A stretch of 61,605 nucleotides of DNA, counting the filler, from Sanchytrium tribonematis (lineage: Eukaryota): NCBI GenBank assembly GCA_018985235.1. It is 8 parts of 8 records of this genome, joined end to end, with 100 filler letters (N's around TTAATTAATTAA, not from the genome) between each part and the next. Parts side by side here need not be neighbours in the genome. Positions count along the whole stretch, not along the records: positions 1 to 26,047 come from JADGIG010000063.1; 7 more parts are not named here. One strand, 5' to 3'. Of the stretch, positions 3,001 through 55,917 are shown one piece after another. A model generated the notes under the pieces. That model made no database searches. It was not told where the DNA came from and saw only the letters and a program-made list of their open reading frames with translations. The translations under genes were made by a program, and so were the position numbers. The stretch's first letter is position 1; the number at the start of each line of letters is the position of its first letter.

Positions 3001-6000
3001 AGCAGGTTATGACATTTTTTACCAAAATAGAGCTGTCACAACATATACGCGTATATTTTGATGATGTTCTTAAAGTGTTTTTACCTAGATACAAGCTGCA
3101 TTTCGAGTGGCGAAATAACCATTACTTTTGCACCGAGCTTAAAATGAAAGTGAGCACATTTAAATTAGATACTCTGGTGGGACTTGATTCTAAAATCGTT
3201 TTAGAATCTGAGTATGGGGATTTTAGCTTAATTGTTCCACACGGTTTGTTGAAATTCCAAAAAATGCCAAATCATTCCAATATTCATGTCGACTTGGAAA
3301 ATGTATTTGAGCCAATCTATTTTAAGTATGAAATCGATAGCATTCTCTGCAGGCTAATTCCTGGTCAAAATCAAGCATCCTGGTTATATTTGGCATATCT
3401 TCATGGCGTATCTACTCATTCTCTACCTGATCCTTTTACGGGATTTACCGGATTTGAATCCGCGTTATGTATTTTGCAGAGGGGCAATTGCTGGTCCTGC
3501 AAGCCTTACTCTACGCACTGTCAGACCCTATTAGGTTTAATTGCACAGCTTTCTCCTACCAGATCTTACTATCCAGAACATCTTCAAGTTATGCAAAAGA
3601 TCAAGTGGGGAGAATTGCATGATATTGCTTACCAAGATGATTATCATGTTTTGGTTTCGAAGCTCATACAAAATAGCACCAATTTGTCTTTTTTATTTCA
3701 GGATGTTAGCTCAAACTTACCGACAAACGAAATAAGTCTCTTGCATAGAAGCGTGGCTCGTTATGGTTATAGCAGAAATGAATTTGGAAAATATAATTAT
3801 AAGCCGCTTTTTTCTAAACCTATCGAACTCAAAATTGAAATAGACCCTCGAGTCTCTACGTTATCAATTTGTGTTAGAAAAAATGCCATCGCTGAATTTA
3901 CTCCTGATTTAGATTTTTTAAAAAGAATTAAAAATCTTCCGTCAAATCATTTTGATAACCAATTGTTTGACAAATCATGGTTTGAAATTTATAAAATGGC
4001 AAAGTCGGGAATAGATATGGAAAATTGGGTATTTTTACTATCTAGATATCATGCAATCAATGATGTTGAAATTTACAAATTAATGCTTCTCCAAGCTGTA
4101 CATTGTTTTGAAACTAAATTTCCTCAGATACCGCAAATCCAAGAGTTTTTTGACACTGGCGAAAATTGTATTCAGTCAGATAAGATAGACAGCATAGTTC
4201 GAAAACATTTGTTTCCTTTTGACAAATTTTGTAAGCAAAACAATCATTTAATGTCCAAAAATGAGAAATATTATAAGTATCAATCACGAATGATGAATAT
4301 TTACAACGATCGAGTTAACAAGTCCATTCAACATATTTGCGAAACTTTGCAATCGTTTTGGCCAACAACACCAAAATTTGAAGACTTCAATGTAGATCAG
4401 CTCGTTTATTTTAATGCTGCCTTTTCATCTATAGAAGCGGCATGCCTAAAATGGAAGAATAATCTAGAGCTTCATCAGTTTTTAGAAAATGTGGTGAGTT
4501 CGTGTATTAAATTGCCAATTGTCCAGATCACTCTACCTAGTATAACGACATATAATGTCGCAAAAATGAAAGCTCCCTTCTCTGTAAGGCTTACTCCTGA
4601 AAATTCAATTGTTAGAGATTCCACCAACTTTGACTACTTAAGTCTGTTCAATACTGGAAAGATTGAAACAGATTCGCCGTCGTTTTTTTCTCATCGCTTT
4701 CCTGAATACGTTAAATGCCCTTTTGTGACGGCTTCAAATCCAATTTATGATTACATGATCAGTCAAGTCAGTGAAAGTTGGGCTAGCTATATGAAATACC
4801 AGATGACAGACCATTTTGATAGACAAAAATTTAAGGATTTTCAAGCCAAATATCAAAATTATTTTCAGCAAAAAGTGGACAGCTTTTTTCGCGAGATTCA
4901 ATCTCAACAAATTTATCATTATGCAATGGTTAATTTTTTAGGACGTTGTACTCCGATATCCATTTTGTCCAAACTTAATGAAAATACTCCCTTGATTGGT
5001 GCATATGCTGTCTCTTTAACGTATTACCAACAAACACTGCGGTGCCTTAAATATGAAAAAGCCAATATGATTCAGCATATTGCTAAAGAATCCCAATTTA
5101 TGTTTCCCCCCAAAAGCTATCCACAATGGGTACTTTTGCAGCTAGAAATGAACGTTATGTTTAGGGAACATCAAGTAACACTTGCTTTGAATCTCAAAGA
5201 TGTTATGCAGCTGCAGATGGGAGAGGGAAAAACTAGCTGTGTTCTTCCTATGATTTCCACTGTAAAATCCAAGAAAATGTGCCAGATTGTAGTGTTGAAG
5301 TCTCTTTACAACTTGAATTATGATTTGCTGAAATTCAAATTGGGAGGCTATTTGTCAAGCGTAAATGTTTATACATTTCCTTATCACAGAAACCTTCAAT
5401 TGGATGAAACGAAATTAAATAAGCTATTTCTAGCCTACAAAAGTTGCATTGAAAATCAACATATTTCAGTTACAATGACGGAATATTTGCAAAGTTTTCA
5501 TTTAAAATGTATTGAAACGAGTTGGAAGCAGGATGATTTGGGATTGAAATATTTAAAGTTGTCGAAATTTTTAAAGGAAAATTCCAAAAATATCCTAGAT
5601 GAATCAGATGAAATTCTCCATTATAAGCACCAACTCGTTTACACTTTAGGAGGTCAGCGTCCAATAGACGGAGGAGCTTTGAGATATCAAATTATTGAAA
5701 AAGTCTTAACAGCATTGTATGAGGAAGGATTTTTTACGATTCATTTAAAATATAGTGACGCTAAGACATTCGCAAAAATACTTCTTGACAAAATAATATT
5801 AAAAAATTACATTGTTTTACCTGATATGGACCCGGCAAAGATGGAAGCGTTTGTTCTGGACTCAACTTGTTCATTGAGTTACACCAATGAGGTACTTTTG
5901 ACACTAAGGGGACTATTTGCTTATGATATACTTTATCATGCATTACAAAAAAGATTCCGAGTTAATTTTGGAGTAGATACTGCTTTTCGTGGCATGGCCA

Positions 6001-10003: not shown

Positions 10004-12239
10004 CTACAAATTTATTAAAGTACTCACTGTGTAGCATTTGAGAGGAATAAATATAACGCAGGAATAGGATTTAGTGGGGATGACACTGGTTGATAATTTT
10101 GTTAAATACTGACTATTTTGTTGCGAATAAAAGTTTACATCTTTATAAGCCTCTTCAATGGAAGATTTGAAGATTCGCATTATATCGAAACTTCTTTTGT
10201 GAGTAAATTTCTTAGTTTCCCTATTGTGAAATATCATATCCTCCACATCGCATATGTTTTTGCGCTTCAGTATTTCCAATGCTGATTTTCCAGAAATTGG
10301 TAGCTTGTCAAAGAATTCGATCGCATTTTGTAATGGCATCGCGTTCTCGAGTATAAGGTGACAAAAATGATTCACAAAAGAAAAGAATTGTGCGGTAATG
10401 TCGAGTGGTACATTAATTTTAAGTTTTTTGGTCGAGTTACAACAACATTTTTGACAATGAAATCCGGATGCTTTTTGTTTGCAACAATATTCGTGAACCC
10501 AGGAGTGGCACGAAAAACACTCTACAATGCTACTATCCTAGATAAACTGAATTTACCATTGAGACTTTACAAGGACAACAAATTAGAGATTCTGAATCTT
10601 GGTTATTTTCTTCCTCTCCAAAAACTTCGGCCTCAACTTTTGCAGGGTCGCAAGTCTCAACAACTAATCGATCCGAAGATGATTCGCCTTTGATCTCAGG
10701 CCCAACTTCGACGGGTATATCATTGTTTGTTGATTCTGAAATTGCTTTAGAACTATTTCTTGAATCTGAATGCGATTCTTGGCTGGTTTTAGAAATTTGA
10801 CTCTCGGCTATAAAGGAACAATCAGGACCAGTTATCTCATTTGTGGAATGCACAATATGGTCCAGAATTTCTTCAGCTTGAGGTTTCTCTTGGAACAAAG
10901 AGACAATATCATTTTTAAAGCATGTATCAGCTGCAATTTCAGAAATTTCAGCGTGTTCTTCTGTTGTTACTTCTGGGAATAATTTACAATCCTCAGTTTC
11001 GCCGTCATTAACGATGCATGTGGAGGTGCTACCATGACTAACATTATGACATTTAGGTCTCTTGTTGTCGATTATTGCCGTGTCAGCATTTTCGGGAAGA
11101 TTATCATTGGGTGCCGGGGAAATATACTTGGCTTCAACAGGCGTATTGCAATTCAAGGCCACCTCAGAAATGAATGGTGCAAGAGCCGCAACTTCGCTAC
11201 TAGGATTCCCCTCCACCATCTCAGTTTGCAATGGTTCAGTACAGGGTTGCGAAGAGTGCTGCAAAAAGACTTCTAGTAAATTTGATTTTTGAACACTCAA
11301 TTCTTGAGAATTTTTACAGTTTTGATTAGAAATATTTTCTTCTTCTTTGAAACAGATTTGCGAAGATTGTGCTTTGAATGGTTTGTAAAAATCAAGCATT
11401 TCTACCTGAGTAAATTCGCTTCCAGCAGTACTGGCAGCATATGTTTTCATTTTGTCAAAACTGCAGCTTGAATCTGATTCAGACTCATGTCTCAATTCCG
11501 CATTTTTATCTTCTTTACAGGATTCATCTTGAGGTTTTAAAATTTCGACGAGTTCAGTATTTTCCACTATAATGGAATTTGTGCTTTTCTTTTTTAAAGG
11601 CGAGCTGGGTTCTGTTTCGGAGGAGCGACTTTCAACACATTCTACTCTTTCATTGTTGGCTTTTAGTCTAGATTTTTCGGAATATTTTTCAGGCAACTTC
11701 TTTAGGGATATAGGAGTATTGAATATCGAAGGGCGCTCGGATTTAAAAAGGTCTTTTTTAAACTTATTGATAACAACAGGAGACATGACTATTTTGCTTG
11801 GTCTTTTCATTGATGCAATCGCCTTAAAGCAAATGTCGGGCTTTGATCGTTTTCTAGTATTCTTGAGTAATTTTGATTTTCCTAATGTTTTGAAGCTGTG
11901 CCTAAACTTTTTTTCCACTTTCACAATATCCAGTGCTTTGTCTTGTTTGTTCCATGGCAAGTTAACTTTTACTTCACAATCTGTCATACAATCTGATAAC
12001 AAATTAAGATCTCCGTCAGTCAAGAATTCTTTCAAACTGTAATCTACAGGACCGTTGATGAAATACTTCTCCCATGCATCCTTGTTTTCGAAAATTTTAC
12101 ATAAATCTTCTTTGCAAATTTTGGTTGACTGATTTCCATCCAGAAGATACAGGCAATCATCGAGAAGCTCAATTTCCAATTTTTGTGCTTCATTTTTAAA
12201 TACCAATTTAAATGGCTTATAATTCTTTTGTCGAAACAT
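10004..12239 (-). CDS. PHD-finger protein; exons 12239-10557 and 10537-10004
   Basis: Splicing the 19-nt intron joins two ORFs and rebuilds a C4HC3 finger: CCPCKVSM|DSSIVECFSCHSWVHEYCCKQKASGFHCQKC. Confidence 0.75.
10538..10556 (-). other. 19-nt spliceosomal intron GTAAATTCAGTTTATCTAG
   Basis: GT..AG ends; removal restores the frame and the PHD finger. Confidence 0.88.
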
Positions 12240-12354
12240 TTTTGGTTTCAAACTGATCAGTTGACCAAGTTGTTTGTTCAATATAAAATCAATTTCTTTA
12301 AGCCCTTAAAGTGCCGAATTTGAAATGGAAAGGATCAATTACCATACAAAGGAG

Positions 12355-13333
12355 ATGTCCAACAACATTAAAATATTTGCGGGAAACTCTCATCGACAAT
12401 TCGCGGAATTAATAGCTAATAGAATTGGTCTGCCTTTAGGAAAGTGCGGTGTTAGCAAATTCGCAAATCAGGAAACCTCTGTGAGTATTGGTGAAAGTGT
12501 GAGAGATGAAGATGTTTATATAATTCAAAGCGGGTGCGGTGAAATCAATGACCACTTGATGGAACTGTTGATTATGATTAGTGCTTGTAAAACAGCATCA
12601 GCTAGAAGAATTACAGCGGTTGTACCATGTTTTCCTTATGCCAGGCAAGATAAGAAAGATAAAAGTAGGGCTCCGATAACAGCAAAATTAGTTGCAAATA
12701 TGCTTACTGTTGCAGGAGCTGATCACGTTATTACTATTGATCTTCATGCTTCGCAAATTCAAGGATTTTTCAACATTCCTGTGGACAATCTATACGCAGA
12801 GCCCTCATTTCTTTATTGGATCAAGCATAATGTGGAGGAGCTTCAAAACGTTGTTATTGTCTCTCCAGATGCTGGTGGAGCAAAGAGAGCCACAGCTATC
12901 GCAGACAGGTTAAATGCCGATTTCGCGATAATTCACAAAGAGCGCAAAAAAGCAAATGAAATAGCCAGAATGGTTTTGATCGGGGATGTTACTGACAAAA
13001 TCGCTATTTTGGTTGATGATATGGTAGTTGACGCTCATTTAGGCTGATACGTGCGGCACACTTGGACTTGCTGCAACTCGCTTAATAGATGGTGGTGCGA
13101 AACAAGTCTATGCTATGGTTACGCATGGCATTCTTTCAGGCAAGGCGTTGGATGTCATATCTAATTCTCCCATCACTAAACTTGTCACCACAAATACAAT
13201 TCCACAAACTCAAAACTTGGATAAATGTTCTAAACTTGAAGTCATAGATCTTTCCGCCACAATTTCAGAAGCCATAAGAAGAACTCACAACGGTGAAAGT
13301 GTCAGTTATCTATTTAATCATGCTCCACAATAA
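12355..13333 (+). CDS. PRS: Ribose-phosphate pyrophosphokinase (PRPP synthetase); exons 12355-13023 and 13043-13333
   Basis: Motifs [18 protein letters not shown] and [10 protein letters not shown]; splicing restores the conserved LVDDM|ADTCGTL motif. Confidence 0.96.
13024..13042 (+). other. 19-nt spliceosomal intron GTAGTTGACGCTCATTTAG
   Basis: Exact removal gives DDMADTCGT with no gain or loss of residues. Confidence 0.95.
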
Positions 13334-13567: not shown

Positions 13568-15842
13568 TTAAATTGTCTTTGTCCTCTGCCTCATGCCTAT
13601 GGGTTGCTTACTACTAGTCAAAAATTTCATTTGAGGGTCTGAATCAATAACACTCTCTGTACTCAAAAAATTAATATTGTCGAATGTACGTTTAAGGATA
13701 TCTATAGAAACGTTTTTGCATTGGGAAATATTGACATTGTCAATAGCAGGCGCATTAAGTAAAAATTCAATAACCGCTTCTTGTGAAATTTTAAAACATC
13801 CTCGAATACCTAGTCTTTTTAAGGACTGACTCGATGATAGGGTCTCTAGCCCTTTGTCAGTCACGAAGGAACCGCAAAAGCTTGCGTCTAAAGTCTCCAA
13901 ATTTTCTAGTCGAGAAACATGTTCTATACTTTTCTCGGTGAGACCACAGACAAAAGAGACGCACAGTAATTTTAAATTAGGACAGCTTTTTGAAATTATT
14001 TCTATGGAATTGTCAGTTAAAAAGCTACAGTCACTCAAAACTAAAACTTCAATATCAAAAATGTGACCCTCCAAATGCCTATAGCCCACGTCTGTTATAG
14101 AAGTACACCGTTGTAGATTTAATTTTTTGATATTTGCAAAAAGAAATGGGTCCTTGTATATATCATTGTTAATACTTTTGCAATAACTTAGACTCATTTC
14201 TTCTAATTGGCAAAAATCCAATAAGCTAGTAATTCCTGAAGCATCTACCTTTCTACAATTACTTAAATCAATAGATCTTATTTTTGGACACCCTTCTGCT
14301 AGGGCTATGAGACCTTCACTGGATATCTCCCAACAGCTATGTATATTGATAATTTCTAAATTCGGACAATTTAAAGCCAAACTAACTAGACCAGAGTTTG
14401 TAACCTTAAAGCATCCTTTCAAATTTATGCTTCTGAGACTGAATTTTCTACATTATAAACAATTACCCCAACTCTGATATTCCGTTTAGACCAGCATTAT
14501 TCATAGAGTTTTGATATTCGCACAAATCTATATTAACGCAAATAGTCGCTAATTTAGAGATCTCGTCATAAAAAGCCTGACAAACCGAGGATAAAGTAAA
14601 AATATCTCTAAATCTCAAAAAGTCAATGATACAGCGAAATATTTTAGGCTTTTCCAACGCAATGTTTAAAAGTTCAGAATAAATGTTATTAGTTTTTGAT
14701 TTTATATTCAAATTGGACAGTTTTTGCCCAGATTTTTTACGCTCCACTAATTTAGATAGGGTAGGATCTGCCCAAACCGCAATGCTGGCACGCCTTTTCT
14801 CCCCTGATGTAACCATTAATCGTTGAGAGTCAAATGATTTCGATAAATTAGACTTGCTACTTTTTTCTTCGCTAACCATTAAATTTTCAAGAGAATGCTC
14901 TAAAGACTTGACAAATGATAACTCTATTTGTTCTCGCACATCCGCATTGGATTCCATAAGTGCCAGAACCGATCTAGATTCCAGAATACAGGCAGTTCCT
15001 GCTGACAGCGCCAACAGAGTCTCATTCTCCAAGGTATCGCGATTATTAAGATTTAAAGCCCCATAAAACTCATTTTGAGCAAAGGATTTTTTTCTTATTT
15101 CGTCTGATATTGAGCTGCTTACAATTCCATTAAGGACCATTAAGATGCTCGGAGATGCATCATTTAAATTTATTTCGCCAGGCTGAAATCTAATTGTTTT
15201 TAATAATTGAAATATTTTTGATAAGGAATCTCCATCGCAAAATTGAAAAGGGGGAAATTTTTTTAGAGCCTTGCAAATTAATTCCTCGTCTAAAAAAAGA
15301 GAGTTGGTAGATTCATTTCCAGTATTTCCTGGGATAATGTTACTATTATATTCGGGGATTTCGTCCACTTTACCAAGCTTCTTATTATTTAAAGCTTCTA
15401 ATCTAGTTGATGCCTCATCTTCCAATTGAGTCCATAATTCTAAATTTTTGAAATCCAAATAATCTTGCTTATGCAAACATAGCACAAAACATTTCGATCG
15501 TGCTAAAACGTTGGCTGTCCTATTAACATTTTTTAATAATGCGATTTCTCCAAAGAATGATCCTGAATATAATGTCGCGTACACAATTTCATCGTCGCTG
15601 CTTAATATGTCGACCTCTCCTCTTATTAAAAAGAAAATTGCTTTACCTTCGTCGCCTTCTTGTATAATTTTATCTCCACTCAAATAAATTCTTGATTTCA
15701 TGACTTTACATAATTCTCTAATCGTATCATCGCCAGATTTTCTGAATAATGGATGATTCCTTAATGACTCTTCGATATCGCTAGGTAATTCATTAATTGA
15801 TTCGATGCTTAATTTTGATTCTTGATTCTTTTGTTGAAACAT
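13568..15842 (-). CDS. Cyclic-nucleotide-binding domain + F-box-like + Cys-containing LRR protein; exons 15842-14467 and 14447-13568
   Basis: cNMP cassette GSFFGEIALLKNVNRTANV; F-box-like IFRCIIDFLRFRDIFTLSSVCQ; LxxLxLxxCxxITD repeats. The two ORFs are joined by a 19-nt intron. Confidence 0.85.
14448..14466 (-). other. 19-nt spliceosomal intron GTAATTGTTTATAATGTAG
   Basis: Removal gives SELG|KFSLRSINLKGC, in frame with the LRR ORF. Confidence 0.9.
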
Positions 15843-17231: not shown

Positions 17232-18246
17232 TTATTGCTGTATCAATTTAAAAAAATATTCCGACTCTAATTGTCCATCGTCCTCAAATTCTGTAAAAAA
17301 AATTCCAATGTCATTCTCTGAAGACAACAAGGCTCTTAAAGATGTCTTGTGTTTCAAAATAGAGACTTCCCTAGTGAGAGGGCCAACAATTTGTCTTAAT
17401 TTTTCCACAACATTTTCCGAGATCACCTGTCTAGATTAATATAAAATACATTATGACACAATTTCCTTTGCATAATGTATTACATAAATGGGAGATATTT
17501 GGAAGAACTCCAGCATAAATTTCCAAATAATTTGAAGCTTCTTCCCTGGAAAGCGATAGTGTAGTGATACAAGTCAATCGAAATGATTTCCTCAGATTTT
17601 CAAGAGCAAAACTAATTTTTCTATTATTAATAATATAGTCTGTTAAAATTACCACTGCTGAATTTTCATTTTGAAAAAGAAACTCAAGCTTTACAGATTC
17701 CAATTTTTCAATTATGTTATTGTCTCCAATAAAATTGCTTGAAATCGTCTTCATCGGTTTTTCAGTTGATCCGATAGCAATTATAAATATTTTATCACCA
17801 TCCAGACCGGAAATATTACAATCCTTGTTCGGCCAATAACCCATTTTCAGTATATGTACTTTTGCAAAGCTCTCAAAATGGCCAATTTGGTCCACTTCAT
17901 CAAGGGACTGTAGAACGAAAGCGATTTTAGAAATTCCGTAGATAACTTCTTCTGTAAATTCGTTTCCAAATCCCGTTATTTTATATGTGCGGGAAAATAA
18001 TTCAATGCATTCGAATTTTTTGAACTTTGTGATAGAGAGAGGAGCAATTCTTGATTTTTTCAAAAATAATTTGTTTCTGCTTTGATCAAATATTCTGACA
18101 CCTTGGGCAAAATATTGAGAGTTATTTCGATCGATATATAAAGTTAAAACAAAATTTCTTGTCAAACAAGAGTTCCGGTCAAAATGCTCAGCAAATATAT
18201 GTAACTCTTGTGTAGGTAAGGGCCCTATATCTTCTTCAATCAGCAT
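17232..18246 (-). CDS. NME7: Degenerate NME7/NDK7 (DM10 domain + NDP-kinase-like domains); exons 18246-17450 and 17430-17232
   Basis: DM10-like FAEHFDRNSCLTRNFVLTLY...IFDQSRNKLFLKK...FSRTYKITGFGNEFT; the C-terminal EDDGQLESEYFFKL resembles NME7 EDGLLEVQYFFKI. Confidence 0.8.
17431..17449 (-). other. 19-nt spliceosomal intron GTATTTTATATTAATCTAG
   Basis: Removal gives GNCVII|QVISENVVEKLR in frame. Confidence 0.9.
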
Positions 18247-18418: not shown

Positions 18419-21032
18419 ATGAGCCAGAGCCAAAAGATATTAGATGTATCTTTGTTGTTTGAAGACGCTAAAGAATCTGGTTTAGATTTGGATGAAATAT
18501 TACAAACAAAAAGAAGGTCCTCCGCACCGGACTCCATAAATGATCCAAAAAAACGCGAAAGTTTAAATTTGGGTCCACTTTTAGAGGAAAACAAAGACAT
18601 GAGACCTTCAGAAACTAAAAACTTTCCCGAAAGAACATCATCAATAACTAGAAATCGTGGTATGAAAGGAAGAAAATTTTCTACTAAGCGAACAGCATCT
18701 ACTTTGTCCAATACCCTTGAAAATGAAAGCGAAACAAGCCTGGAAGAAAAAGAGACCGACAAGAAAGATAAGGAGCCAGGGTCTCCTACTTTATCTAGGA
18801 AAGGGAAAATGAGGAACAGTTCATTTGAATCTACAAATAGTGGAAATTCTACTAAAGCAATCTCTATACCTCGTAGGTCAGTATCTCTTCCATCAAAAGA
18901 AGTCGATACAATTATTATGGATGTTTCTAAAAGGATTCTGGGTGTACCTGGTCTTGCTGCAAATTGGAGACTTATTAAAAGCTTTAATACTCAATTTGAA
19001 GCGCTTCCTAGTATAATGAGTCCGAGTCTCCAGCCTTCAGAATCAAAACTAAATAATATTAATTTGATAATAGATCATTTGCACAGAGCTTTGCAATTGG
19101 TGTCAGAAGAAACTCATTCCCTTCTAGAAGCTCGAATTTCTGCGTTATTAGGGGTTGCAAATGATATCAGAGGGAAGCCTGAAATAGCCAAAGAATGGTT
19201 TATTAAATCTCTGACATGTATTCAGCATCAAATAGGCCAAATTTTTCCGGATAGTGCAAAAGAAGAAGCTGAAGTTTTAAATAGTAATCTCAATTTGGAT
19301 GACCAAAAGTCTATCTACGAGGGAATTAAACGAATCATGTCTCAAACCCAAACTACTCAAGATTCAGATGCTGTGGTAGTTGATCCAGCTTGGTTCGCTG
19401 AATTGCTAGGAAATATGGGAAACGTATGTTATGTTTTGTTGGAAACAAAAGAAGCGATAGGTTGGTACAGAAAGAGTGTTCTTATATGTAGACAAATTGT
19501 CACCACATATAGCAAATATGCACAGCCATATATACGTCCAATTGCTCAAATGATGTTGTCAGCAGAAGCTGGGATTGTTCGTGGATGTTGTCAATTAGCG
19601 CTTTGCTTTCAAGCATTAAATAGGATTCCTACAGCCATTTATTATTCTAGAAAAGCGCACGTATCCTACGAAGAATACAAGAGCGTTTTTGAAATCCATT
19701 CTCCCCAAACAGTTGTTCATACAATGGCAGTGTTGGAAACAATTAACTTAGTTTCTGGATGCAAGGTTTTATCTCTATGTTATTCAGAAGAAGGTCTAGA
19801 AAATTGTCCTGCCGATTATACTCACTTTTTGCTGTTTAGAAAGGCAGCCTCTACTTCCGAAAACGCTGCTCTTAGACACATTTTATGGAAAAATTTTCTC
19901 AAAACCTGCACCAAAGAACAATTTAATGATTTAACACAGCGAAACGTGACTAATAATTTCAGTGTATTTGTAAAATCTATGTTAAAAGAAGCAATTGATT
20001 CATTTGAAGCTGCTGATGTTGAAAACAATGATTTGATGTTTGATGCTAGACTTCATTTATTCGTCAGAGAAGGAATCGGTAAAGCTTTTTCACTTAGCTC
20101 AGATATTATTACTACTAGAGAATGGAAAAACATCATTTTCTCATCTTACCCAAACTTTGAAGAAACAAGCGACCAGGACCAAGGTAACTCTTGGTTTACC
20201 TCACGATTTTGTAATCCACATGTATCGTCGTCTGTATAGCCATTTAGGACAAACGTTGAAACCTTCAATGATGAGTGGGAGTGATTTATCAATCGGGTTT
20301 TCAATTGAAGAATGTATGTCATCACCCTGTGTACAGTACCACGATCATTATATCAAGAGTTCTCAAGCCGTTGGTGATGTTTATGGAAGGATTGTGGGCA
20401 CACTGAGGCTTTCTTATACCCATTATAATATCGCTTCGAAAATGTATACCAATTCAGGACCTTCTCAAGACGAGAGTTTGGAAAAGGCCTTTAATTATTG
20501 TCTCGAATGCGTTCAGACGTCACTTTATCACAATTTTTATAATTTCGCAGCGATTTCACTGTTACAAGCAGCGTCTGTTTTAGAATGTTATAGAGAATTA
20601 AGTGGTGCTAGAGACCCTCAATTCAAAGTAGATGTAAGCAAAGAAGCAAAAAAGATATCTAGTGTTAAAGAAACATGCTTTTTAGATTGGGACAACTGGA
20701 CACAAACAAGATTATTTTCCGCTATTAAAACAAGCAAAAATGAATTGAATTCGGCTATAATACAATATAGGTGGCTAGGAATAATGATAATGATTACTAA
20801 TTTATATGTCGTATCAAAAGAGGAATTGTTGATATCAGAAACACTAGAAAATCCAAATAATATCTTGAGGTTGCATTTTGATAAGGTAAGCAGATTAAAT
20901 GAGAGTGGTCATATTCTCGCATTTTTAGGTGACCAGGATGAGGCCGTATACCAAGAGATATTTAAAGTGTTGGAAATAACAAACAATCATGTCGCACAGA
21001 TCCAGGATTGGCTCGATGGCATTCACAAATAA
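18419..21032 (+). CDS. Large TPR-like helical protein with a disordered Ser/Arg-rich N-terminus; exons 18419-20078 and 20098-21032
   Basis: TPR-like AELLGNMGNVCYVLLETKEAIGWYRKS; two overlapping ORFs are joined by a 19-nt intron. Confidence 0.65.
20079..20097 (+). other. 19-nt spliceosomal intron GTAAAGCTTTTTCACTTAG
   Basis: It gives the required +1 frame change (VREGI|AQILLLLENG) and fits the intron consensus. Confidence 0.82.
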
Positions 21033-21478: not shown

Positions 21479-21733
21479 CTAAGACTGGAATCTTTTATTT
21501 ATGACGGAGGCAACCTTTTCATATGATTCTATGTAATTAGCGCTAACTTTTTTTATGCATTGTTTTTCTCGTTCGCCAAAATTGTCAAAATTTGAGAAGC
21601 ATTCAAAGCTAAGGTCGTAAACAGTTTCCATAAATTGACTCATTCGTTCCTGAAATAGCTGCTGGCGGTATCTGGCTTTGCTGGCTTCCAATTGTGCTTG
21701 ACTATCGCTTTCAGAATTTCCAAATATCCCCAT
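21479..21733 (-). CDS. Small Tim (Tim9/Tim10-like) mitochondrial IMS chaperone with only two cysteines
   Basis: 84 aa; ERMSQFMETVYDLSFECFSNFDNFGEREKQCIKK parallels Tim9 QMKDFMRLY...C...KEQTCIMKC. Confidence 0.6.
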   Translation of the reverse strand: MGIFGNSESDSQAQLEASKARYRQQLFQERMSQFMETVYDLSFECFSNFDNFGEREKQCIKKVSANYIESYEKVASVINKRFQS

Positions 21734-21754
21734 TTGTAAAGAATTCTCTGAAAT

Positions 21755-22120
21755 ATGACTGACCATGACGAGATTGAGCAAAAATCTTTAAAACATGTAA
21801 AATATGACGTGAGTAACATACAGCCTTCAATTGAAGGATATATTATTATGATGACGAACGTACACGAGGAAGCTACCGAAGATGATGTTTTAGATCTTGT
21901 CACTGAATATGGGAAGGTTGTTCACATCCATTTAAATACCGACAGAAGAACAGGATATGTTAAAGGATATTGTTTACTGGAATACGAGAAATTGGACGAG
22001 GCTGTAAATGCCGTAATTGGTTTAAAAAAGACTAAATTTCTTGGACAAAACTTGGATTGCGACTTTGCATTCACTAAGCCTAATTCTAGGCATCTAGATA
22101 GGGTTTTAGATATTAAATGA
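21755..22120 (+). CDS. RBM8A: Exon junction complex subunit Y14 (RRM)
   Basis: SIEGYIIMMTNVHEEATEDD and IHLNTDRRTGYVKGYCLLEY are Y14 signatures. Confidence 0.95.
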   Translation: MTDHDEIEQKSLKHVKYDVSNIQPSIEGYIIMMTNVHEEATEDDVLDLVTEYGKVVHIHLNTDRRTGYVKGYCLLEYEKLDEAVNAVIGLKKTKFLGQNLDCDFAFTKPNSRHLDRVLDIK

Positions 22121-22174: not shown

Positions 22175-22699
22175 ATGCAAGAATGTTTAACAGTAGCTTT
22201 GGTTTGCATCTTTGTTGAAATTGTCAAAAGAATCGGCTTTTCAACTTGTTCCACCTTACTTTATAATTTCGTTTACGGTGGTAAAGACGTCTCTGCTTTG
22301 AAAAAAGAAATATATGAGTTAGAAGTAGAACTGAAAAAAACCAGCGCCATGGACGAATTTGCCAAATGGGCCAAAATCCGTCGGCAGCTAGATACAGCAA
22401 CGAAAAAGCAACAAGACATGATGTCAGACGAAAGTATGAAAAAACTTAAAGTTCAAATTAAAGTCACTTCAGGATTATGGATACTCACTAATGTCATGCA
22501 CGCCTGCTGTAGTTTATATTATAGATATGAGCCCATGTTTTACTTGCCAAAAATTCTTGGACCTTTAAATGACTGGGTGCATCTGCCTTTTGCACCACTT
22601 GGATCTGTAAGTGTTGTGATTTGGTACTTTACCGTTCAAAGAACAGCAAATTTATTGTTTGACACTATTATCCCCATAGAGAAAGAAAAAGAGCAATAA
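22175..22699 (+). CDS. GET1: GET pathway receptor Get1/WRB
   Basis: Coiled-coil motif TSAMDEFAKWAKIRRQLD, TM segments and LPFAPLGSVSVVIW. Confidence 0.92.
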   Translation: MQECLTVALVCIFVEIVKRIGFSTCSTLLYNFVYGGKDVSALKKEIYELEVELKKTSAMDEFAKWAKIRRQLDTATKKQQDMMSDESMKKLKVQIKVTSGLWILTNVMHACCSLYYRYEPMFYLPKILGPLNDWVHLPFAPLGSVSVVIWYFTVQRTANLLFDTIIPIEKEKEQ

Positions 22700-27475: not shown

Positions 27476-27602
27476 TGCAATCGTATTGAGAAATGGAGGC
27501 AAACGTTTAAAAGACGAATTATAGTCTTTGGACCAATCAAATTAAAGTTTTTTATTAAAACCTTTGATGAAAAATGACGAGAATAAATTTAGCATTCATA
27601 CT

Positions 27603-28619: not shown

Positions 28620-28662
28620 TATTAGTTTTCTCCTATCCGTAAATGATTGTGTTACGATTGCA

Positions 28663-30366: not shown

Positions 30367-30410
30367 ATTTTAAAACAATGGAGAACGTAATACAAATAAT
30401 ATTTATTGAA

Positions 30411-31146
<736 letters not shown>

Positions 31147-38362: not shown

Positions 38363-41144
38363 ATGTACGCGCTATTTTTGACATTGCTTGCTGTTTCTAT
38401 AGATTGTTCAATAGTGATTCAATTGGGTATAGACATGGATATCAAGTATACAAATACAGAATATCAAATACAGTATGAAAAAGATTGTTGTTTGGGATAT
38501 GGTGTGATTTGTGAAAATGAACGAGTTGTTGAACTACATTGGGACTTTACAAGTAATTATGCGGGTGCTAGATATCCAATATTACATTTCCCGCCCATGT
38601 TACGCGTATTAAATTTGAGATATAGTCAAAAATCAATGATTATTCAAGAATTACCAGATACGTTGAAAGTAATGGATTTATATGGTGCGTATGACATTCA
38701 ATTAAATCTAAAAGTGTTTCCCAACTTGAGATTTCTTGGTTTATTTAGATTCTCAACATCTTTTATGCCAAAATTACCAAAAATACCAGAATCTGTAGAA
38801 TATTTGGATTTGGTGAATTACTATTCATACGAAATATTCCCATCTAAAAATAGCAATTTGAAAGTATTTTATGGATATGATGAATCATATGAAATGCCAT
38901 TTCCAGATCTTCCAGATGGCCTTGAAGTGGTAGAAATAATTGGTTCTAAATTAAAAGGCCCTATTTCTTTCAAATTCCCACATATTACTGATCTATATCT
39001 TACAAATTCTCTATTAAATGGTAATTTGACTATTTTATCACCTAATATCACTAGTTTGTATATTTATGACAGTTCATTTGATAATTTATATCTCCCATAT
39101 CCGGAGAAAGTTCAAAGCTGCGCATTGTCATCCGTATTTGATACTGAAAGCAATTTAACATTGAGTAAATTACCCTGTACATATACGCTGAAATCACCAA
39201 GATCTGTTGATTGTGATTCTATCATTTTATTTGCACGCCAATTAAATATGCATTTGACAAATCCAGAATACTGCAATTATCTCTCAACCAGTTCAAATTG
39301 CTGCGATGACCAGTTTTACCACGTGCAATGTAAAAATAATAGAATTTATGATATTTATTTTGAACGAATGAATTTAAATGGTACACTAAATACGACACTC
39401 TTGCCTGATACTCTTGAATTTATTTACCTACATGACAACCATTTACAAGGTGAATTCCCTAATTTGACTCATTTTACGAATCTACATACGATTTATATGG
39501 ATAATAACCAATTTAGTGGTCCTATTATGAATAAATTACCAGTACAGTTGAAAGTATTATATGCAAATTATAATCAATTAAATGGCACAATTCCAAATTT
39601 GAATTTACTCCAGGATTTGTTTTTAAGGGGAAATCAATTTGAAAATGTAGAAAATCAATTAATAGGCAATTCGATTCACAATATTGATATTTCTTATAAT
39701 CAGATTAAAGGAATCTTTGACATGTCTAATTATCAAGGTTCTACTTCATTTAATTTTCAAAGCAATTTTATTGATTTCATCATCACCACTTCAAAAATAT
39801 CCTCTTATTATTGTGATGTGACCATGAATCAATTAAATCAATCTGCATTAACTAATTTTATAAATTGTAATTACCAAATTCAAAGATATACACCCAATCA
39901 ATGCATGAATTATATGAAACTAGCTCAAAAAATGGATATTTTGAATCTAGATCGTGATCAAAATTGTTGTGCATCTAATCCATATATCAAATGTGATTAC
40001 AACATTATGACTGAATTGACAATTGCGTATCATCATCATATAAATTCATTTCATGGATACGCATTTTCAATTCAAGATTTGCCACTTAGTTTGAAGAAAT
40101 TATTGATTTTACAGCCATTTAATCAAAGTACCATGATTCCACCATTGATTCCTGGTCATATTAAATATTTAGAATTCACAAATGCAAATATTAGTGGTTA
40201 TTTACCACAATTTGCAGAAGGATTAGAAACATTAAAATTGACAAATCTTAAATTAATGGGTGGTTTGCCATTACTCCCGAGTACATTAAAAATATTAGAT
40301 GTGACCTATTGTGAATTATCTGGTGGGATTCCACCCCTTCCACCCAATTTACAAGCATTGTATTTAAATGGGAATCAATTGAGTGGTCCATTGCCAGTAT
40401 TCCCTGATTCGCTTTCAATCGTGGTATTGGGTGATAAAGTGAATGAAGGCAATACATTTACTGGCACACTCAATTTATATAAACCATCTTTAATCATTTT
40501 AGGAAATATTAATATTTCAAATGTGCAAATTAATGACACTTCAAAACTTGTAAATTGTGATTTATCATTTAATCCACTCTCAAATAGCACATTATTGAGT
40601 AATTATACCATTTGTACACAATTTTATTTGACTGCAAAACCACTTTTAATGCAAATTGAGAGTACCAAAAGTAAAACTAGCTCATGGTTTTCCACAGATA
40701 CTACAAATTTGCCACAATCAAGTGAATCAACTTCAACAGTGTCAACAATAGTTGCACAATCAAGTGAAATAAGCACCATGGAAGATCCAGAAATGCTACA
40801 ATCCAGTAATTTATGATAATTTAGTCAAAAGACGTGCTATTTTTAAAGCAAGTGCAACTTTAACCACTTTACAAAGCTACTTTTTTACGAATACAACCCA
40901 AATTAATACGCAAACCAATACACAATCTATAATTAATTTGTCTAAATTTGATAAACCTGTAATTGTAATCAAATGGACATGGCAAATTATATTAAGTATT
41001 GTTTTGGATTTATTGGTGATGTATAATATCATTTTTGCAGTTTATAGTGGAAGAAAGAGGAAATCAAAGCAGCTATACAATCAAGCTAATAGTTATGTGT
41101 TCTGTATTGCCACTGGACACTTGCAAATCACTCATTATCAGTAA
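38363..41144 (+). CDS. Receptor-like LRR protein (short leader, three Cys-capped LRR modules, Ser/Thr stalk, C-terminal TM); exons 38363-40805 and 40825-41144
   Basis: Repeated SxDC...CC...C.N.RI caps and LxLxxNxLxGxIP repeats; splicing adds TM WQIILSIVLDLLVMYNIIFAVY followed by RKRK. Confidence 0.85.
40806..40824 (+). other. 19-nt spliceosomal intron GTAATTTATGATAATTTAG
   Basis: Removal gives QS|IKRRAIFKAS in frame to the TM exon; same position and phase as in the contig-7 paralog. Confidence 0.9.
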
Positions 41145-41407: not shown

Positions 41408-41584
41408 CATCAATTGCACCTGGTGGTATATAGGACTTATTTAGGAGGTTACACTATTAAATTAGAAAGCTACGATCAAGATGGTGAATTAATTTTCTGC
41501 TTCAGTGGTTCATTCACCTTGAAGAAAAAAGAAATTCCAAGTGGAAAATTCTCTCCTTATAGCAGATACAATAAATTAGATTAG
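41408..41584 (+). CDS. ML/NPC2-like lipid-binding domain C-terminus; 5'-partial; exons 41408-41425 and 41445-41584
   Basis: Spliced product SIAPGG|GYTIKLESYDQDGELIFCFSGSFTL matches the ML-domain C-terminal pattern. Confidence 0.65.
   Translation, partial: HQLHLVVYRTYLGGYTIKLESYDQDGELIFCFSGSFTLKKKEIPSGKFSPYSRYNKLD
41426..41444 (+). other. 19-nt spliceosomal intron GTATATAGGACTTATTTAG
   Basis: Fits the consensus, and removal yields an ML-like P-x-G-x-Y junction. Confidence 0.8.
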
Positions 41585-52787: not shown

Positions 52788-52806
52788 CTAAATTAATAGA
52801 AATAAC
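52788..52806 (-). other. 19-nt spliceosomal intron GTTATTTCTATTAATTTAG
   Basis: Removal gives RS|IVTRVFYKAS; homologous to intron 40806-40824. Confidence 0.88.
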
Positions 52807-54079: not shown

Positions 54080-55917
54080 TTATTCTATTCTTGGTATTTC
54101 AATGTTCCTTGCTTCTTCCAAGTCTGCTACTGTATATGGACAGTTTCTACCAAGTGTGTGCCATAAAGTATGGCATTCTATGGCATGTAATCTAATTTCG
54201 GGATCACAAAATGTGCATCCATACGTCGTAGTGCTTCTTTTGCGCTTGTATTCCTTGCAATATTTACACTCCCGTCCTGCACCACCATAATTGCGTGGCC
54301 AATGTCCAAATGCAGTTGTCAAAAACCACCATGGCTGGCTGGATTCTATTGAAACAGGAATAGTCATTCTCTGTGATCTTCTGGTTCTTTTGGTGTATGT
54401 TCTCCCTCCAATCAAATGCTCAATAATGGCAAGTCTAAATTCCTCTATTGTATGACTATGCCCTAATAAATTAAAAATCACAGAGGATGCCACAATGTAG
54501 AAATCAAGAAACCAGAAGAAGGATCACAACCACCATCGACGTGTATGCAACAAAGTGGCAAATTTTTCCATCTTCTGATCGCATAAATCAGACCCTCCCA
54601 TATTCCAGTTGTAGGAAATGGCAATTTTGGGAAGAGCAAGAGTAGTGCTGCCATTTACAGTGACCAACTGATATTCATTTGCAACATCATTACTCACATT
54701 GCGTTTTACTGTGATGGTTTCATGTCTCTCGTCAATCAAAACGGGATGGGTAGTGGCAAAGTACACATTTTTGACCTAAATAAATAAAAATGTACGGCAC
54801 CAGTTTGTAATTTAATCATTCTTAGTAATACTTGGTTGACATCTTGAATATAAAGTGATTGGTAGAAAGAATCACCTTGTAATTCTTGTAAAATGTGGTC
54901 TGGAATCCTGTTGGTTCTAATGGTGCCACAATAATATATGCCTCTCTCTAGTAATGTATTCATTAATTCACGGGTAGTAAACCAGTTGTCACAAAATAAA
55001 CAAACACTAGAATCTTCCAAGAATTCTGTCATTTTTGACACGATTCGTATCACTTTGCCAGCATCCGAATCAGATTTATCATCAAAATAAAATGCAAATG
55101 GATAACCCGTCCTCGGGCAACAGAGTGTAAAGACTTTAAATCCACGTGGTTGTGGCTTGGTTTTAATTGTGAATGTTTTAGAATCCCTCCCTGTCCATGG
55201 AATTATTGCCTCGTCAAGTGACAGTGCATTGGGAGCAACCACAAATAATCGTAATAAACTCTCTTTTTCAAGGATTGGTTTTAATTTGAAAAGTTTATCT
55301 GTAGAATCAGATTGTTCATTGTTGGTTAAATGCAAATTTTGCATAAAAAACTTGAAATCGTTCTTTGTCATGACCTTTTTTACGTAATCATCACCAAACG
55401 GGAATGATGTTGTCCAATGATTGTCCACATTGGCACGTTTTCTATGCATTAAAAGCAATGCTAGTCCTAAAAATGTCTTAATTTTGTTTCCATCAATGCC
55501 ATTTGGGATATCAGAGGTAGAAACTGGTATGTTGTTATCTGCTGCTCTTTTTGCTTTTTTTTGATGGCAGTAAATGGATGTTTGTACTGCTATAGAGTCA
55601 AAAAACTCGGATTTAAAAAATAAACTAAAAATTTCACTGGGAGTTACTGCTTGCAAGTCAGGAAATCCATCAGCATCACTCTCCAGACCAAGTTCAGAGG
55701 CAATGGCAGGTGTATTTGGCTCGATACAGCCCTCAAAGTCTCGCACATAACTCAAAATATCTGTCAAAGAAGAAAAGTCTAGCCAAATGTCCTCTTCGCA
55801 CTGCTCCATCATCTCCTCATATCCCTCTTCAGATGAGATACTTGCTTCCGATTCACTGAGCCAGTCATCATCGCTCTCAAGTGGAAATGCGTCACTTGTG
55901 GGTAATGAAGATGACAT
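54080..55917 (-). pseudogene. piggyBac-type DDD transposase (~605 codons) with a C-terminal Cys-rich domain, one 20-nt intron and one in-frame TGA (54524-54526)
   Basis: SLDEAII, KTKPQPRGFK, FCDNWFT, GTIRTNR, YNWNMGGSDLCDQ, RRWWL*SFFWFLD and CKYC..TTYGCTFC..C. Confidence 0.9.
54776..54795 (-). other. 20-nt spliceosomal intron GTACATTTTTATTTATTTAG in the transposase
   Basis: It has the length class needed to join the frames, gives LQTGA|VKNVYFATTH, and shares the host 3' consensus. Confidence 0.8.

What the first reader, a model, noticed from the sequence alone, without database searches (positions are those of the whole stretch)
13024..13042. Branch point fused to the 3' splice site: invariant T(-8), A(-6), TAG
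Seen: the last 9 nt of the 11 introns are TTTATCTAG, CTCATTTAG (x2), ATAATGTAG, TTAATCTAG, TTCACTTAG, ATAATTTAG, CTTATTTAG, TTTATTTAG (x2) and TTAATTTAG. All have T at -8, A at -6, a pyrimidine at -5 and TAG (never CAG). Ten of 11 start GTA, and there is no polypyrimidine tract. Established: yUnAy is the degenerate branch consensus, and the tiny Stentor introns also carry a conserved A six nt from the end. Inference: the branch is at intron position 14, giving a 14-nt lariat loop. That is probably too short for simultaneous canonical U1 and U2/SF3b occupancy, so U2AF/SF1/SF3b changes or sequential binding are predicted. A 3n+1 length also shifts the frame of every unspliced message; EJC subunit Y14 is present at 21755.
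Basis: partly seen in the sequence, partly recalled or inferred. Interest (0 to 1): 0.75.

Follow-up and report, generated by a model that had tools for sequence, protein, structure and literature searches.

The report
19-base introns in a sanchytrid fungus
This fungal DNA carries eleven intron-like inserts of 19 or 20 bases that all share one end signal, whose fixed adenine six bases from the end is likely the branch point, so this overlooked lineage would join the few organisms with the smallest known introns.

Summary
All 11 inserts exist, and their last nine bases read exactly as listed. T(-8), A(-6), a pyrimidine at -5 and TAG occur in 11 of 11; GTA occurs in 10 of 11.

One correction: ten are 19 nt, but 54776-54795(-) is 20 nt. 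One more, 41426-41444(+), sits 18 bases from a contig edge and rests mostly on the motif.

- **They are real introns.** Found by frame-bridging alone, 9 of 11 bridging 19-mers carry the 3' motif, against 5 of 310 non-bridging ones. The full pattern gives 12 hits against 1.9 expected. Removing 19 nt joins PRPP synthetase at human residues 222|223 and a kinase at Pfam positions 140|141.
- **The organism is a sanchytrid fungus.** The closest named relative is Amoeboradix gromovi. Its ORF-called proteins break at the same site in 3 of 3 genes checked.
- **The branch point is inferred.** The motif is yUnAy with a 5-nt tail. Stentor has the same tail, and Yarrowia the same A(-6) placement by my count from its published consensus. 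No RNA was available.
- **Novelty.** This is a new member of a known kind, after heterotrich ciliates, mikrocytids and chlorarachniophyte nucleomorphs. I found no paper reporting it. The sanchytrid genome paper called ORFs without modelling introns.

The scan has earlier notes on longer tiny introns in other fungi (Rozella, Neolecta), none on this genome.

The parts
13024..13042 (+). 19-nt intron, phase 0, in the PRPP synthetase gene (the finding's own coordinates)
   Evidence: Exon 1 ends at human PRPS1 residue 222 and exon 2 starts at residue 223, with no gap. ORF-called proteins of A. gromovi (P0001) and two unnamed relatives (P0122, P0124) all stop a few residues after the same DDM.
30957..30975 (-). 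19-nt intron, phase 0, in an AGC-type protein kinase gene
   Evidence: Pfam Pkinase profile positions 84-140 end exon 1, and positions 141-263 start at the first residue of exon 2. The junction joins ...IKVT to DFG....
10538..10556 (-). 19-nt intron, phase 0
   Evidence: It bridges ORFs of 583 and 177 codons. A Cys/His spacing that I recall as the PHD-finger signature, C-x2-C-x10-C-x2-C-x4-H-x2-C, spans the junction; I read it by eye, and no Pfam hit supports it.
14448..14466 (-). 19-nt intron, phase 2, between a cNMP-binding part and an LRR part
   Evidence: It bridges ORFs of 489 and 293 codons. If retained, translation stops after one codon. ORF evidence only.
17431..17449 (-). 19-nt intron, phase 2, in an NDK7-N-domain-like gene
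   Evidence: It bridges ORFs of 289 and 66 codons. The A. gromovi orthologue P0126 (39% identity) ends one residue past the same site, which fits GTA followed by A or G.
20079..20097 (+). 19-nt intron, phase 1, in a TPR-repeat gene
   Evidence: It bridges ORFs of 567 and 311 codons. The A. gromovi orthologue P0128 (72% identity) ends G-N-E-N-stop right after the same EGI. That puts a stop codon on intron positions 12-14, which fits T.A.
40806..40824 (+). 19-nt intron, phase 1, in an LRR gene
   Evidence: It bridges ORFs of 824 and 106 codons. If retained, translation stops after 3 codons. ORF evidence only.
41426..41444 (+). Probable 19-nt intron, phase 1, 18 bases from a contig start
   Evidence: Full motif match. 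The downstream frame stays open for 46 codons, with a weak match to the end of the ML domain (E = 0.059). The upstream exon is cut by the contig end.
46678..46696 (+). 19-nt intron, phase 2, in a PIP5K-like gene
   Evidence: It bridges 62 codons (cut by the contig start) and 169 codons. Exon 2 matches PIP5K profile positions 215-287 of 288 from its 4th residue.
52788..52806 (-). 19-nt intron, phase 1, the only one starting GTT
   Evidence: It bridges ORFs of 397 and 95 codons. ORF evidence only.
54776..54795 (-). 20-nt intron, phase 0, in a PiggyBac-type transposase-like gene
   Evidence: It bridges ORFs of 383 and 83 codons, and among the short candidates only a 20-nt removal does so. Exon 1 matches DDE_Tnp_1_7 profile positions 1-255 and exon 2 positions 286-333, the latter weakly (E = 0.033). 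A is still at -6 and T at -8.
21529..21547 (-). Unresolved 12th motif match (starts GTT)
   Evidence: It matches the full pattern. The upstream frame is open for 80 codons. The frame ends 9 codons later if spliced and 22 if not, and there is no homology to decide.

Best explanation
These are spliceosomal GT-AG introns of a sanchytrid fungus, squeezed to 19 (once 20) bases, and their invariant adenine six bases from the 3' end is likely the branch point.

Shown:
- Each intron is almost wholly signal. It has a 5' site GTA-N-W-T, about four free bases, a yTnAy block at -9..-5, then N-T-A-G.
- Removing exactly these bases restores reading frames and gap-free homology.
- The sites are shared with Amoeboradix gromovi.

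Inferred:
- U2 would select the A at -6, giving a lariat loop of 14-15 nt with a 5-nt tail.
- The AG five bases downstream would be taken in the second step. No pyrimidine tract or U2AF-type spacing would be involved.
- The fixed length would be the floor set by the 5' site-to-branch distance, under deletion pressure in a compact, intron-poor genome.
- Because the length is never a multiple of three, a retained intron runs into an early stop. Such messages could then be removed by nonsense-mediated decay.
For: Real introns:
- Nine of 11 frame-bridging 19-mers carry the motif, against 5 of 310 non-bridging ones.
- The full pattern gives 12 hits against 1.9 expected.
- The length scan peaks only at 19.
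- PRPP synthetase joins at residues 222|223. The kinase joins at Pfam positions 140|141.
- The 20-nt intron joins two parts of one transposase domain, in order.

Conservation:
- In 3 of 3 genes with a retrieved A. gromovi orthologue, the ORF breaks at the same site. The tails fit GTA and T.A.

Branch point:
- T(-8), A(-6) and Y(-5) are 11/11, and Y(-9) is 9/11, which is yUnAy.
- A(-6) is the only invariant internal A. In 20079-20097 it is the only A between position 7 and the AG.
- The 20-nt intron keeps the 3' spacing.
- Stentor 15- and 16-nt introns have the same 5-nt tail (PMC9505925).
- Yarrowia has ACTAAC, then 2 nt, then AG (PMC2483917). By my count that also places the A at -6.

Specificity:
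- Look-alikes inside conserved domains lack part of the signal. 12587-12605 has A at +6 and G at -5. 37678-37696 and 37769-37787 start GTC.

Information content:
- The relative entropies sum to roughly 19-20 bits by my addition. I estimate about 16 bits after a small-sample correction.
- About 13 bits are needed to find 11 sites in this window.
Against: - There is no RNA evidence of any kind. No RNA run was listed, and no spliced transcript or lariat has been seen.
- Only 11 introns from about 61 kb were available, and no whole genome. 'Invariant' may soften to 'strongly preferred' genome-wide.
- Introns of 18 or 21 nt without a stop codon would escape frame-based detection, so the apparent lack of 3n lengths is partly an ascertainment effect.
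- Four introns (14448, 40806, 52788, 41426) rest on ORF or motif evidence alone.
- Position -7 is A in only 4/11 and never G. The match to the stronger WCTRAY consensus of other intron-poor species is therefore poor, and pairing with U2 would be weak.
- The U-rich -5..-3 block could instead be read as an extended 3' splice-site signal.
Confidence: 0.75

Rival explanations
1. The introns are real, but T(-8)/A(-6)/T(-5..-3)/AG is one extended 3' splice-site element. A protein or snRNA would read it as a unit, as U2AF reads the C. elegans UUUUCAG (that reading by U2AF is recalled). The branch would form elsewhere or at a variable nucleotide.
For: - The conserved block runs without a break from -9 to -1, and -5..-3 is U-rich.
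- C. elegans has a strong TTTCAG 3' consensus and no identified branch-point motif (PMC2483917).
- Nucleomorph 18-21-nt introns are spliced well with no discernible branch A (PMC6009652).
Against: - No other adenine is conserved. One intron has no other A between position 7 and the AG.
- The block fits yUnAy position by position.
- Stentor has the same 5-nt tail, and Yarrowia a recognisable ACTAAC ending 2 nt before the AG.
Confidence: 0.12
2. The signal is real but overstated by the small, partly motif-guided sample. Across the genome the positions would be preferred rather than invariant, and other lengths (18, 20, 21 or more) and CAG ends would be common.
For: - There are only 11 introns, and one is already 20 nt and one starts GTT.
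- Introns of 3n length without stops cannot be seen by frame tests.
- Stentor shows about 91% and 5%, not 100%, for its branch A positions.
- Two relatives' PRPP synthetase tails put a stop codon on intron positions 13-15. That fits either a 20-nt intron or a purine at -5.
Against: - The motif-blind frame test recovers the same set. Nine of the 11 bridging 19-mers carry the motif, and the other two are a shadow of a true site and one unsupported candidate.
- The motif scan over lengths 12-44 shows no second peak that survives inspection.
Confidence: 0.3
3. These are not introns at all. They would be frameshifting errors, pseudogene lesions or programmed frameshift sites that happen to look like GT...AG.
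For: No RNA evidence is available. The published protein sets treat these genes as ORFs that end at these sites.
Against: - The length is identical, the termini and internal motif are shared at 11 sites, and the count is 12 against 1.9 expected.
- Housekeeping genes (PRPP synthetase, a kinase) are restored exactly.
- The same sites are interrupted in a relative whose orthologue is only 39% identical.
Confidence: 0.03

Closest known systems
15-16-nt introns of heterotrich ciliates (Stentor coeruleus, Fabrea salina, Blepharisma, Condylostoma)
   Same: - Near-fixed ultrashort length, GT...AG termini and AT-rich sequence.
- Conserved A six bases from the 3' end, giving a 5-nt tail. When the intron is one base longer, the A moves with the 3' end (PMC9505925 section 2.1; PMC9004412 passages).
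- Most genes have no intron. In Fabrea the introns are also enriched at the 3' end of genes (PMC13685798 passage).
   Different: - Here the length is 19-20 nt, so the loop is 14-15 nt rather than 10-11.
[quoted passage not shown]
- The length is not a multiple of three here, whereas 15 is.
- The host is a fungus, not a ciliate, so the origin is independent.
Anchored branch points without a pyrimidine tract in intron-poor eukaryotes (Yarrowia lipolytica, Trichomonas vaginalis, Giardia lamblia; Irimia and Roy 2008)
   Same: - Low intron density.
- No pyrimidine tract.
- Branch motif at a fixed distance from the AG. In Yarrowia there are 2 nt between the motif and the AG (PMC2483917), which by my count places the A at -6 as here.
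   Different: - Those introns are long (Yarrowia median 204 nt, per the table). Only their 3' end is constrained.
- Their motif is a strong ACTAAC or CTAACA. Here only yTnAy is fixed, and -7 is A in just 4/11.
18-21-nt introns of chlorarachniophyte nucleomorphs (Bigelowiella natans)
   Same: The same length class, described as '19 nt introns' in PMC2483917 and as 18-21 bp in PMC6009652. GT-AG termini.
   Different: - Nucleomorph introns have no discernible branch adenosine and no motif beyond GU-AG.
- They are dense, at 3.1 per gene (PMC6009652).
- Here the internal motif is invariant and density is about 0.2 per gene.
16-17-nt introns of mikrocytids (Mikrocytos mackini, Paramikrocytos canceri)
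   Same: A parasite with uniform, sequence-conserved ultrashort introns; 217 of 224 are 16 bp (PMC10245619 section read).
   Different: - A rhizarian lineage with a shorter length.
- Its spliceosome is strongly reduced. The sanchytrid spliceosome could not be examined here.
Short introns of other Holomycota (microsporidia; Rozella)
   Same: Reduced parasitic relatives of fungi with short introns and a branch motif close to the 3' end. Encephalitozoon cuniculi has CTAAYTT (PMC2483917).
   Different: - E. cuniculi introns have a median of 32 nt and variable length (table).
- None of these has a fixed 19-nt length.

Membership tests
U2-type spliceosomal GT-AG introns | GT at the 5' end and AG at the 3' end | tested here: met
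   11 of 11.
U2-type spliceosomal GT-AG introns | Removing exactly the insert restores the reading frame and homology across the junction | tested here: met
   The frame is restored in 10 of 11; the 11th is cut by a contig end. Homology is gap-free for PRPP synthetase and the kinase. It is ordered but weak for the transposase.
U2-type spliceosomal GT-AG introns | Branch-point motif yUnAy upstream of the 3' splice site | tested here: met
   Y(-9) 9/11, T(-8) 11/11, A(-6) 11/11, Y(-5) 11/11. That the branch is actually used was not tested.
U2-type spliceosomal GT-AG introns | Spliced mRNA and a lariat intermediate | not testable with these tools
   No RNA holder was listed for this DNA.
Ultrashort fixed-length introns (heterotrich-ciliate type) | Narrow length distribution below about 22 nt | tested here: met
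   Ten introns of 19 nt and one of 20 nt. The motif scan over lengths 12-44 peaks only at 19. The sample is 11 introns.
Ultrashort fixed-length introns (heterotrich-ciliate type) | Conserved A six bases from the 3' end (5-nt tail) | tested here: met
   11 of 11, including the 20-nt intron. The comparison is with PMC9505925.
Ultrashort fixed-length introns (heterotrich-ciliate type) | Common descent with the ciliate introns | tested here: not met
   The host is a fungus. PRPP synthetase is 92% identical to that of Amoeboradix gromovi and about 80% to those of chytrids. It works alike but arose independently.
Anchored-branch 3' architecture of intron-poor eukaryotes (Irimia and Roy 2008) | Low intron density (they use about 0.1-0.15 per gene) | tested here: inconclusive
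   I count about 47 ORF-defined genes in the window, with 11 introns, or about 0.23 per gene. That is low but above their cut-off, and it comes from 61 kb only.
Anchored-branch 3' architecture of intron-poor eukaryotes (Irimia and Roy 2008) | Branch motif at a fixed distance from the AG, with no pyrimidine tract | tested here: met
   There are always 2 nt between the yTnAy block and the AG.
Anchored-branch 3' architecture of intron-poor eukaryotes (Irimia and Roy 2008) | The same strong hexamer (WCTRAY type) in more than half of the introns | tested here: not met
   Position -7 is A in 4/11 and never G. Position -9 is C in 3/11. No single hexamer dominates.

The most novel reading that the evidence does not exclude
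Sanchytrid fungi run a rigid ruler-type splicing system. Some two thousand introns genome-wide (my extrapolation from 11 per 61 kb to an 11-Mb genome) would nearly all be 19 nt, with a 14-nt lariat loop and a 5-nt tail. These would be the smallest introns in any opisthokont. They would have evolved independently of ciliates, mikrocytids and nucleomorphs yet reached the same branch-to-3'-end geometry. That would point to a universal lower limit of the spliceosome's active site rather than a lineage quirk.
Probability: 0.45. Interest if true: 0.75.

Novelty: new member of a known kind. Interest (0 to 1): 0.6.

Why it matters
**A fourth lineage.** Introns of fixed length below 22 nt are known from three lineages: heterotrich ciliates, mikrocytids and chlorarachniophyte nucleomorphs. 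A fungal case would be the first in opisthokonts. It would be shorter than the 22-bp median recently called the shortest in animals (PMC13644364).

**Convergent geometry.** The same 5-nt tail appears in Stentor, and the Yarrowia consensus places the A at -6 by my count. This makes the question 'what sets the minimal intron?' comparative and testable.

**A practical consequence.** The public sanchytrid protein sets were made by ORF calling on contigs (PMC8371127 methods). Intron-containing genes are therefore truncated or split there, as shown by P0121, P0001, P0126 and P0128. This can affect the gene counts, orthologue tables and phylogenomic matrices built on them.

Tried and rejected
- **No RNA holder listed**, so expression and splicing could not be examined. 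The one listed holder is a DNA run that may be the source of this DNA, so I did not lay it.
- **No whole genome held**, so a genome-wide logo, an 18/21-nt depletion test and snRNA or splicing-factor searches were not possible.
- **Metagenome scan with PRPP synthetase exon 1**: 596 of 600 matched stretches encode a relative and 80 were kept. The best is 73% identical, so none is a sanchytrid-like relative, and I used none further.
- **Homologue search for the 10538 gene** found only the window's own protein.
- **Scan notebook**: nothing for this genome, its look-alikes or sanchytrids.
- **Other candidate introns rejected:**
  - 30925-30943(-) bridges frames only as a shadow of 30957-30975. Pfam continuity 140|141 picks the latter.
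  - 58415-58433(+) bridges frames, but it starts GTC, has no motif and no homology support.
  - 22657-22679(+) lies between two complete, unrelated genes, Get1/CHD5 and dynactin.
  - 39428-39446(-) is antisense to a long gene.
  - 12587-12605(+), 37678-37696(+) and 37769-37787(+) lie inside domains that align without gaps, so they cannot be spliced.
- **Small bumps at lengths 33 and 36** in the motif scan are scattered coding or antisense hits. Two of them merely extend true introns.
- **First guesses abandoned:** a ciliate and a myxozoan. The ciliate guess fell once PRPP synthetase pointed to fungi. The myxozoan guess fell on its longer introns, median 22-27 bp.
Full report
**What is at the coordinates**

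Positions 13024-13042(+) hold a 19-nt insert that starts GTAG and ends TTTAG. It sits in a PRPP synthetase gene between ...VDDM and ADTCGT....

- Exon 1 (12325-13023) aligns to human PRPS1 up to residue 222.
- Exon 2 (13043-13330) starts at residue 223.
- Neither alignment has a gap, so exactly these 19 bases must leave the message.

**What the window is**

The window is not one stretch of a chromosome. Seven linkers of 44 N, TTAATTAATTAA and 44 N split it into eight contigs:

- 1-26047
- 26148-31146
- 31247-36227
- 36328-41307
- 41408-46387
- 46488-51466
- 51567-56536
- 56637-61605

Genes are cut at these joints. An oxoprolinase gene and an aconitase gene both stop there.

GC is about 34%. 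All three stop codons act as stops, and ORFs lie back to back. By my count there are about 47 ORF-defined genes.

**The organism**

- PRPP synthetase exon 1 is 92% identical to a protein named EP00835 Amoeboradix gromovi in EukProt. It is about 80% identical to chytrid and zygomycete enzymes.
- Two more genes of the first contig have their only close relatives in A. gromovi. Both relatives lie on one A. gromovi contig.
- The window therefore comes from a sanchytrid fungus that is related to, but distinct from, A. gromovi. The three orthologue identities are 92%, 72% and 39%.

**The intron set**

Ten are 19 nt. The one at 54776-54795(-) is 20 nt, and among the short candidates only a 20-nt removal joins its two ORFs.

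Position counts:

| Position | Base | Count |
|---|---|---|
| +1, +2 | G, T | 11/11 each |
| +3 | A | 10/11 (T at 52788) |
| +5 | A or T, never G | 11/11 |
| +6 | T | 10/11 |
| -9 | pyrimidine | 9/11 |
| -8 | T | 11/11 |
| -6 | A | 11/11 |
| -5 | T 10, C 1 | 11/11 pyrimidine |
| -4 | T | 8/11 |
| -3 to -1 | TAG | 11/11 |

Positions 7-10 carry no signal. The introns are 76.7% A+T.

**Is this more than chance, and is it circular?**

I therefore searched without it.

- Of the 321 GT-N15-AG 19-mers on both strands, 11 bridge two long open frames. The test required at least 55 codons upstream, at least 60 downstream, and an early stop if unspliced.
- Nine of those 11 carry T.AY.TAG, against 5 of the 310 that do not bridge (Fisher P = 1.2e-12).
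- The two bridging 19-mers without the motif are weak. One is a shadow of the kinase intron, excluded by Pfam continuity. The other is an unsupported GTC site at 58415.
- At other lengths from 14 to 30 nt, bridging candidates number 0-6. Only five of them carry the motif. One is the 20-nt intron itself; the others share their 3' end with a true intron (13024, 14448, 30957 or 10538) and start at an alternative GT.
- The full pattern GTW-N8-TNAYNTAG occurs 12 times against 1.9 expected; 0 of 100 shuffles reached 12.
- When the spacer is varied, only total length 19 stands out.
- The twelve hits are ten listed introns plus two others. The site at 21529-21547(-) is unresolved. The site at 39428-39446(-) is antisense to a long gene.

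**Support from homology**

- The kinase intron (30957-30975) splits the Pkinase profile at 140|141. Exon 2 starts at its first residue.
- The 10538 junction rebuilds a Cys/His spacing that I recall as the PHD-finger signature. I read it by eye, and no Pfam hit backs it.
- The two sides of the 20-nt intron match one PiggyBac-type transposase profile in order, positions 1-255 and then 286-333. The second match is weak (E = 0.033).
- Exon 2 of the 46678 gene starts in the last part of the PIP5K profile.
- Four introns (14448, 40806, 52788, 41426) have ORF or motif evidence only.

**Support from a relative**

The public A. gromovi proteins were called as plain ORFs on contigs, so an unspliced intron shows up as a short foreign tail.

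- **PRPP synthetase.** The window's own ORF ends [10 protein letters not shown]. The A. gromovi ORF ends DDM-VFFSNLG, and two unnamed relatives end DDM-VVYF and DDM-VFSL. The A. gromovi tail has the same length as the window's. Its N-L-G end back-translates to AAY-TTA-GG, if the L codon is TTA as in the window. That gives A(-6), Y(-5) and TAG.
- **NDK7-like gene.** The A. gromovi orthologue is only 39% identical, yet it ends one residue past the same site. That fits GTA followed by A or G.
- **TPR gene.** The orthologue (72% identical) ends G-N-E-N-stop after the same EGI. That gives GTAAY at the start and a stop codon on intron positions 12-14. A stop there fits T(-8) and A(-6) if it is TAA or TGA.

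All three orthologues retrieved are interrupted at the same place.

**Natural negative controls**

Three look-alikes lie inside domains that align without gaps, so they cannot be spliced.

- 12587-12605(+) in PRPP synthetase has GTA, T(-8), A(-6) and TAG. It has A at +6 and G at -5.
- 37678-37696(+) and 37769-37787(+) in the RuvB-like gene have the complete 3' block but start GTC.

These suggest that +3, +6 and -5 all count.

By my addition, the relative entropies sum to roughly 19-20 bits. I estimate about 16 bits after a small-sample correction. About 13 bits are needed to pick 11 sites out of this window. The signal plus the fixed length could therefore define these introns alone.

**Mechanism**

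Shown:
- The anatomy of the introns.
- The exactness of their removal at the DNA and protein level.
- The conservation of their sites in a relative.

Inferred:
- The A at -6 is the branch point.

Reasons for that inference:
1. Positions -9 to -5 fit yUnAy, with the A in the right place.
2. It is the only invariant internal A. In 20079-20097 it is the only A between position 7 and the terminal AG.
3. In the 20-nt intron the A stays at -6 and moves to position 15, so it is anchored to the 3' end.
4. Stentor's 15- and 16-nt introns place their branch A at positions 10 and 11, again a 5-nt tail (PMC9505925, section 2.1).
5. Yarrowia lipolytica has ACTAAC, then 2 nt, then AG (PMC2483917, passages). 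By my count that also puts the A at -6.

This gives a loop of 14 nt (15 in one case) and a 5-nt tail. The 5' site (positions 1-6) and the branch block (11-15) are only about four bases apart.

That is reasonable, and a similar steric argument is in print for Stentor (PMC9505925, abstract and passages). Nothing here tests it.

All 11 lengths are non-3n. For the 10 introns whose frame assigned, retention gives a stop 1 to 53 codons after the donor. For 41426 I read the frame by eye and find a stop within two codons.

A Y14/RBM8A gene is present at 21752-22117. This fits surveillance of unspliced messages but does not show it. Stop-free 3n introns would also have escaped my frame test.

**Comparison with what is known**

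| System | Intron length | Internal signal | Source |
|---|---|---|---|
| Heterotrich ciliates | 15-16 nt | branch A at -6 (Stentor) | |
| Mikrocytids | 16-17 nt | highly conserved sequence | |
| Chlorarachniophyte nucleomorphs | 18-21 nt | no discernible branch A, no motif beyond GU-AG | |
| This window | 19-20 nt | strict yTnAy block, A at -6, TAG only | |

- Anchored branch points without a pyrimidine tract are known from Yarrowia, Trichomonas and Giardia, in the setting of intron-poor genomes.
- The sanchytrid case combines both. It has a fixed ultrashort length and a strict 3'-anchored branch block, in a genome with about 0.2 introns per gene.
- It differs from the Irimia-Roy class in having no dominant WCTRAY hexamer. 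Position -7 is A in 4/11 and never G.
- It differs from Stentor in length and in the strictness of the block.
- It is a new member of a known kind, not a new kind.

**Is it in print?**

- Searches for sanchytrid plus intron and for Sanchytrium, Amoeboradix, Sanchytriomycota and introns found no paper that discusses sanchytrid introns.
- In the genome paper (PMC8371127) the word 'intron' occurs only in a reference title. Its methods state that ORFs were predicted from contigs with TransDecoder.
- The only other paper holding all those terms mentions introns only for Blastocladiella.
- A search for 19-nt or 19-bp introns returned only nucleomorph work among eukaryote genome papers.
- A search for shortest, ultra-short or tiny introns with fungi returned nothing on sanchytrids.
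- I did not open supplementary files. Subscription journals are not covered.

**Verdict**

- The branch-point reading is likely but untested.
- The spliceosome predictions remain open.
- The main value is a previously unreported fungal lineage with 19-nt introns, and the consequence that its public protein sets are truncated at these sites.

Noticed in passing
window 26048-26147, 31147-31246, 36228-36327, 41308-41407, 46388-46487, 51467-51566, 56537-56636: The window is eight separate contigs joined by N44-TTAATTAATTAA-N44 linkers. The first is 26 kb and the other seven are about 5 kb each. Genes such as oxoprolinase and aconitase are cut at the joints.
   Followed up: yes
all 11 introns; relative positions for the 8 with complete genes: Every measurable intron lies in the last 40% of its coding sequence, at relative positions 0.61-0.88. 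Under a uniform model the chance is about 0.4^8. This is the opposite of the 5' bias usual in intron-poor genomes. A passage in PMC13685798 reports 3' enrichment for Fabrea salina. The motif scan, which needs no flanking ORF, found no 5'-proximal site either.
   Followed up: partly
P0121, P0001, P0126, P0128 (proteins from public sets): Public ORF-called sanchytrid proteins end in a translated intron or stop at the donor. Intron-containing genes are therefore truncated or split in those proteomes.
   Followed up: partly
window 43195-43380 (+): A nuclear RNase P RNA gene (Rfam RF00009, 37.7 bits, E = 1.4e-7). It is the only Rfam match in the window.
   Followed up: no
window 31249-35873 (+): A head-to-tail array of five protein-kinase ORFs on one 5-kb contig; the first is cut by the contig start. 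None is interrupted by an intron.
   Followed up: no
window 56915-61063 (+): Three tandem ORFs of about 380 residues. Two give a weak match to the AA9 (lytic polysaccharide monooxygenase) family, E about 4e-5 and below Pfam's cut-off. This may be relevant to a parasite that enters walled algae.
   Followed up: no
window 54083-55944 (-): A PiggyBac-type transposase-like gene that carries the 20-nt intron. An in-frame stop at 54524-54526 separates its second exon from a further 147-codon ORF. It is unclear whether this is an active element, a domesticated gene or a decaying copy.
   Followed up: partly
window 12587-12605 (+), 37678-37696 (+), 37769-37787 (+): Near-perfect intron look-alikes inside conserved domains that cannot be spliced. 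They differ from true introns at +3 (C), or at +6 and -5. They are ready-made negative controls for a splicing assay.
   Followed up: yes
window 3-8054 (+): One uninterrupted ORF of at least 2684 codons runs off the window start. It matches DUF6606, DUF3638 and DUF3645.
   Followed up: no
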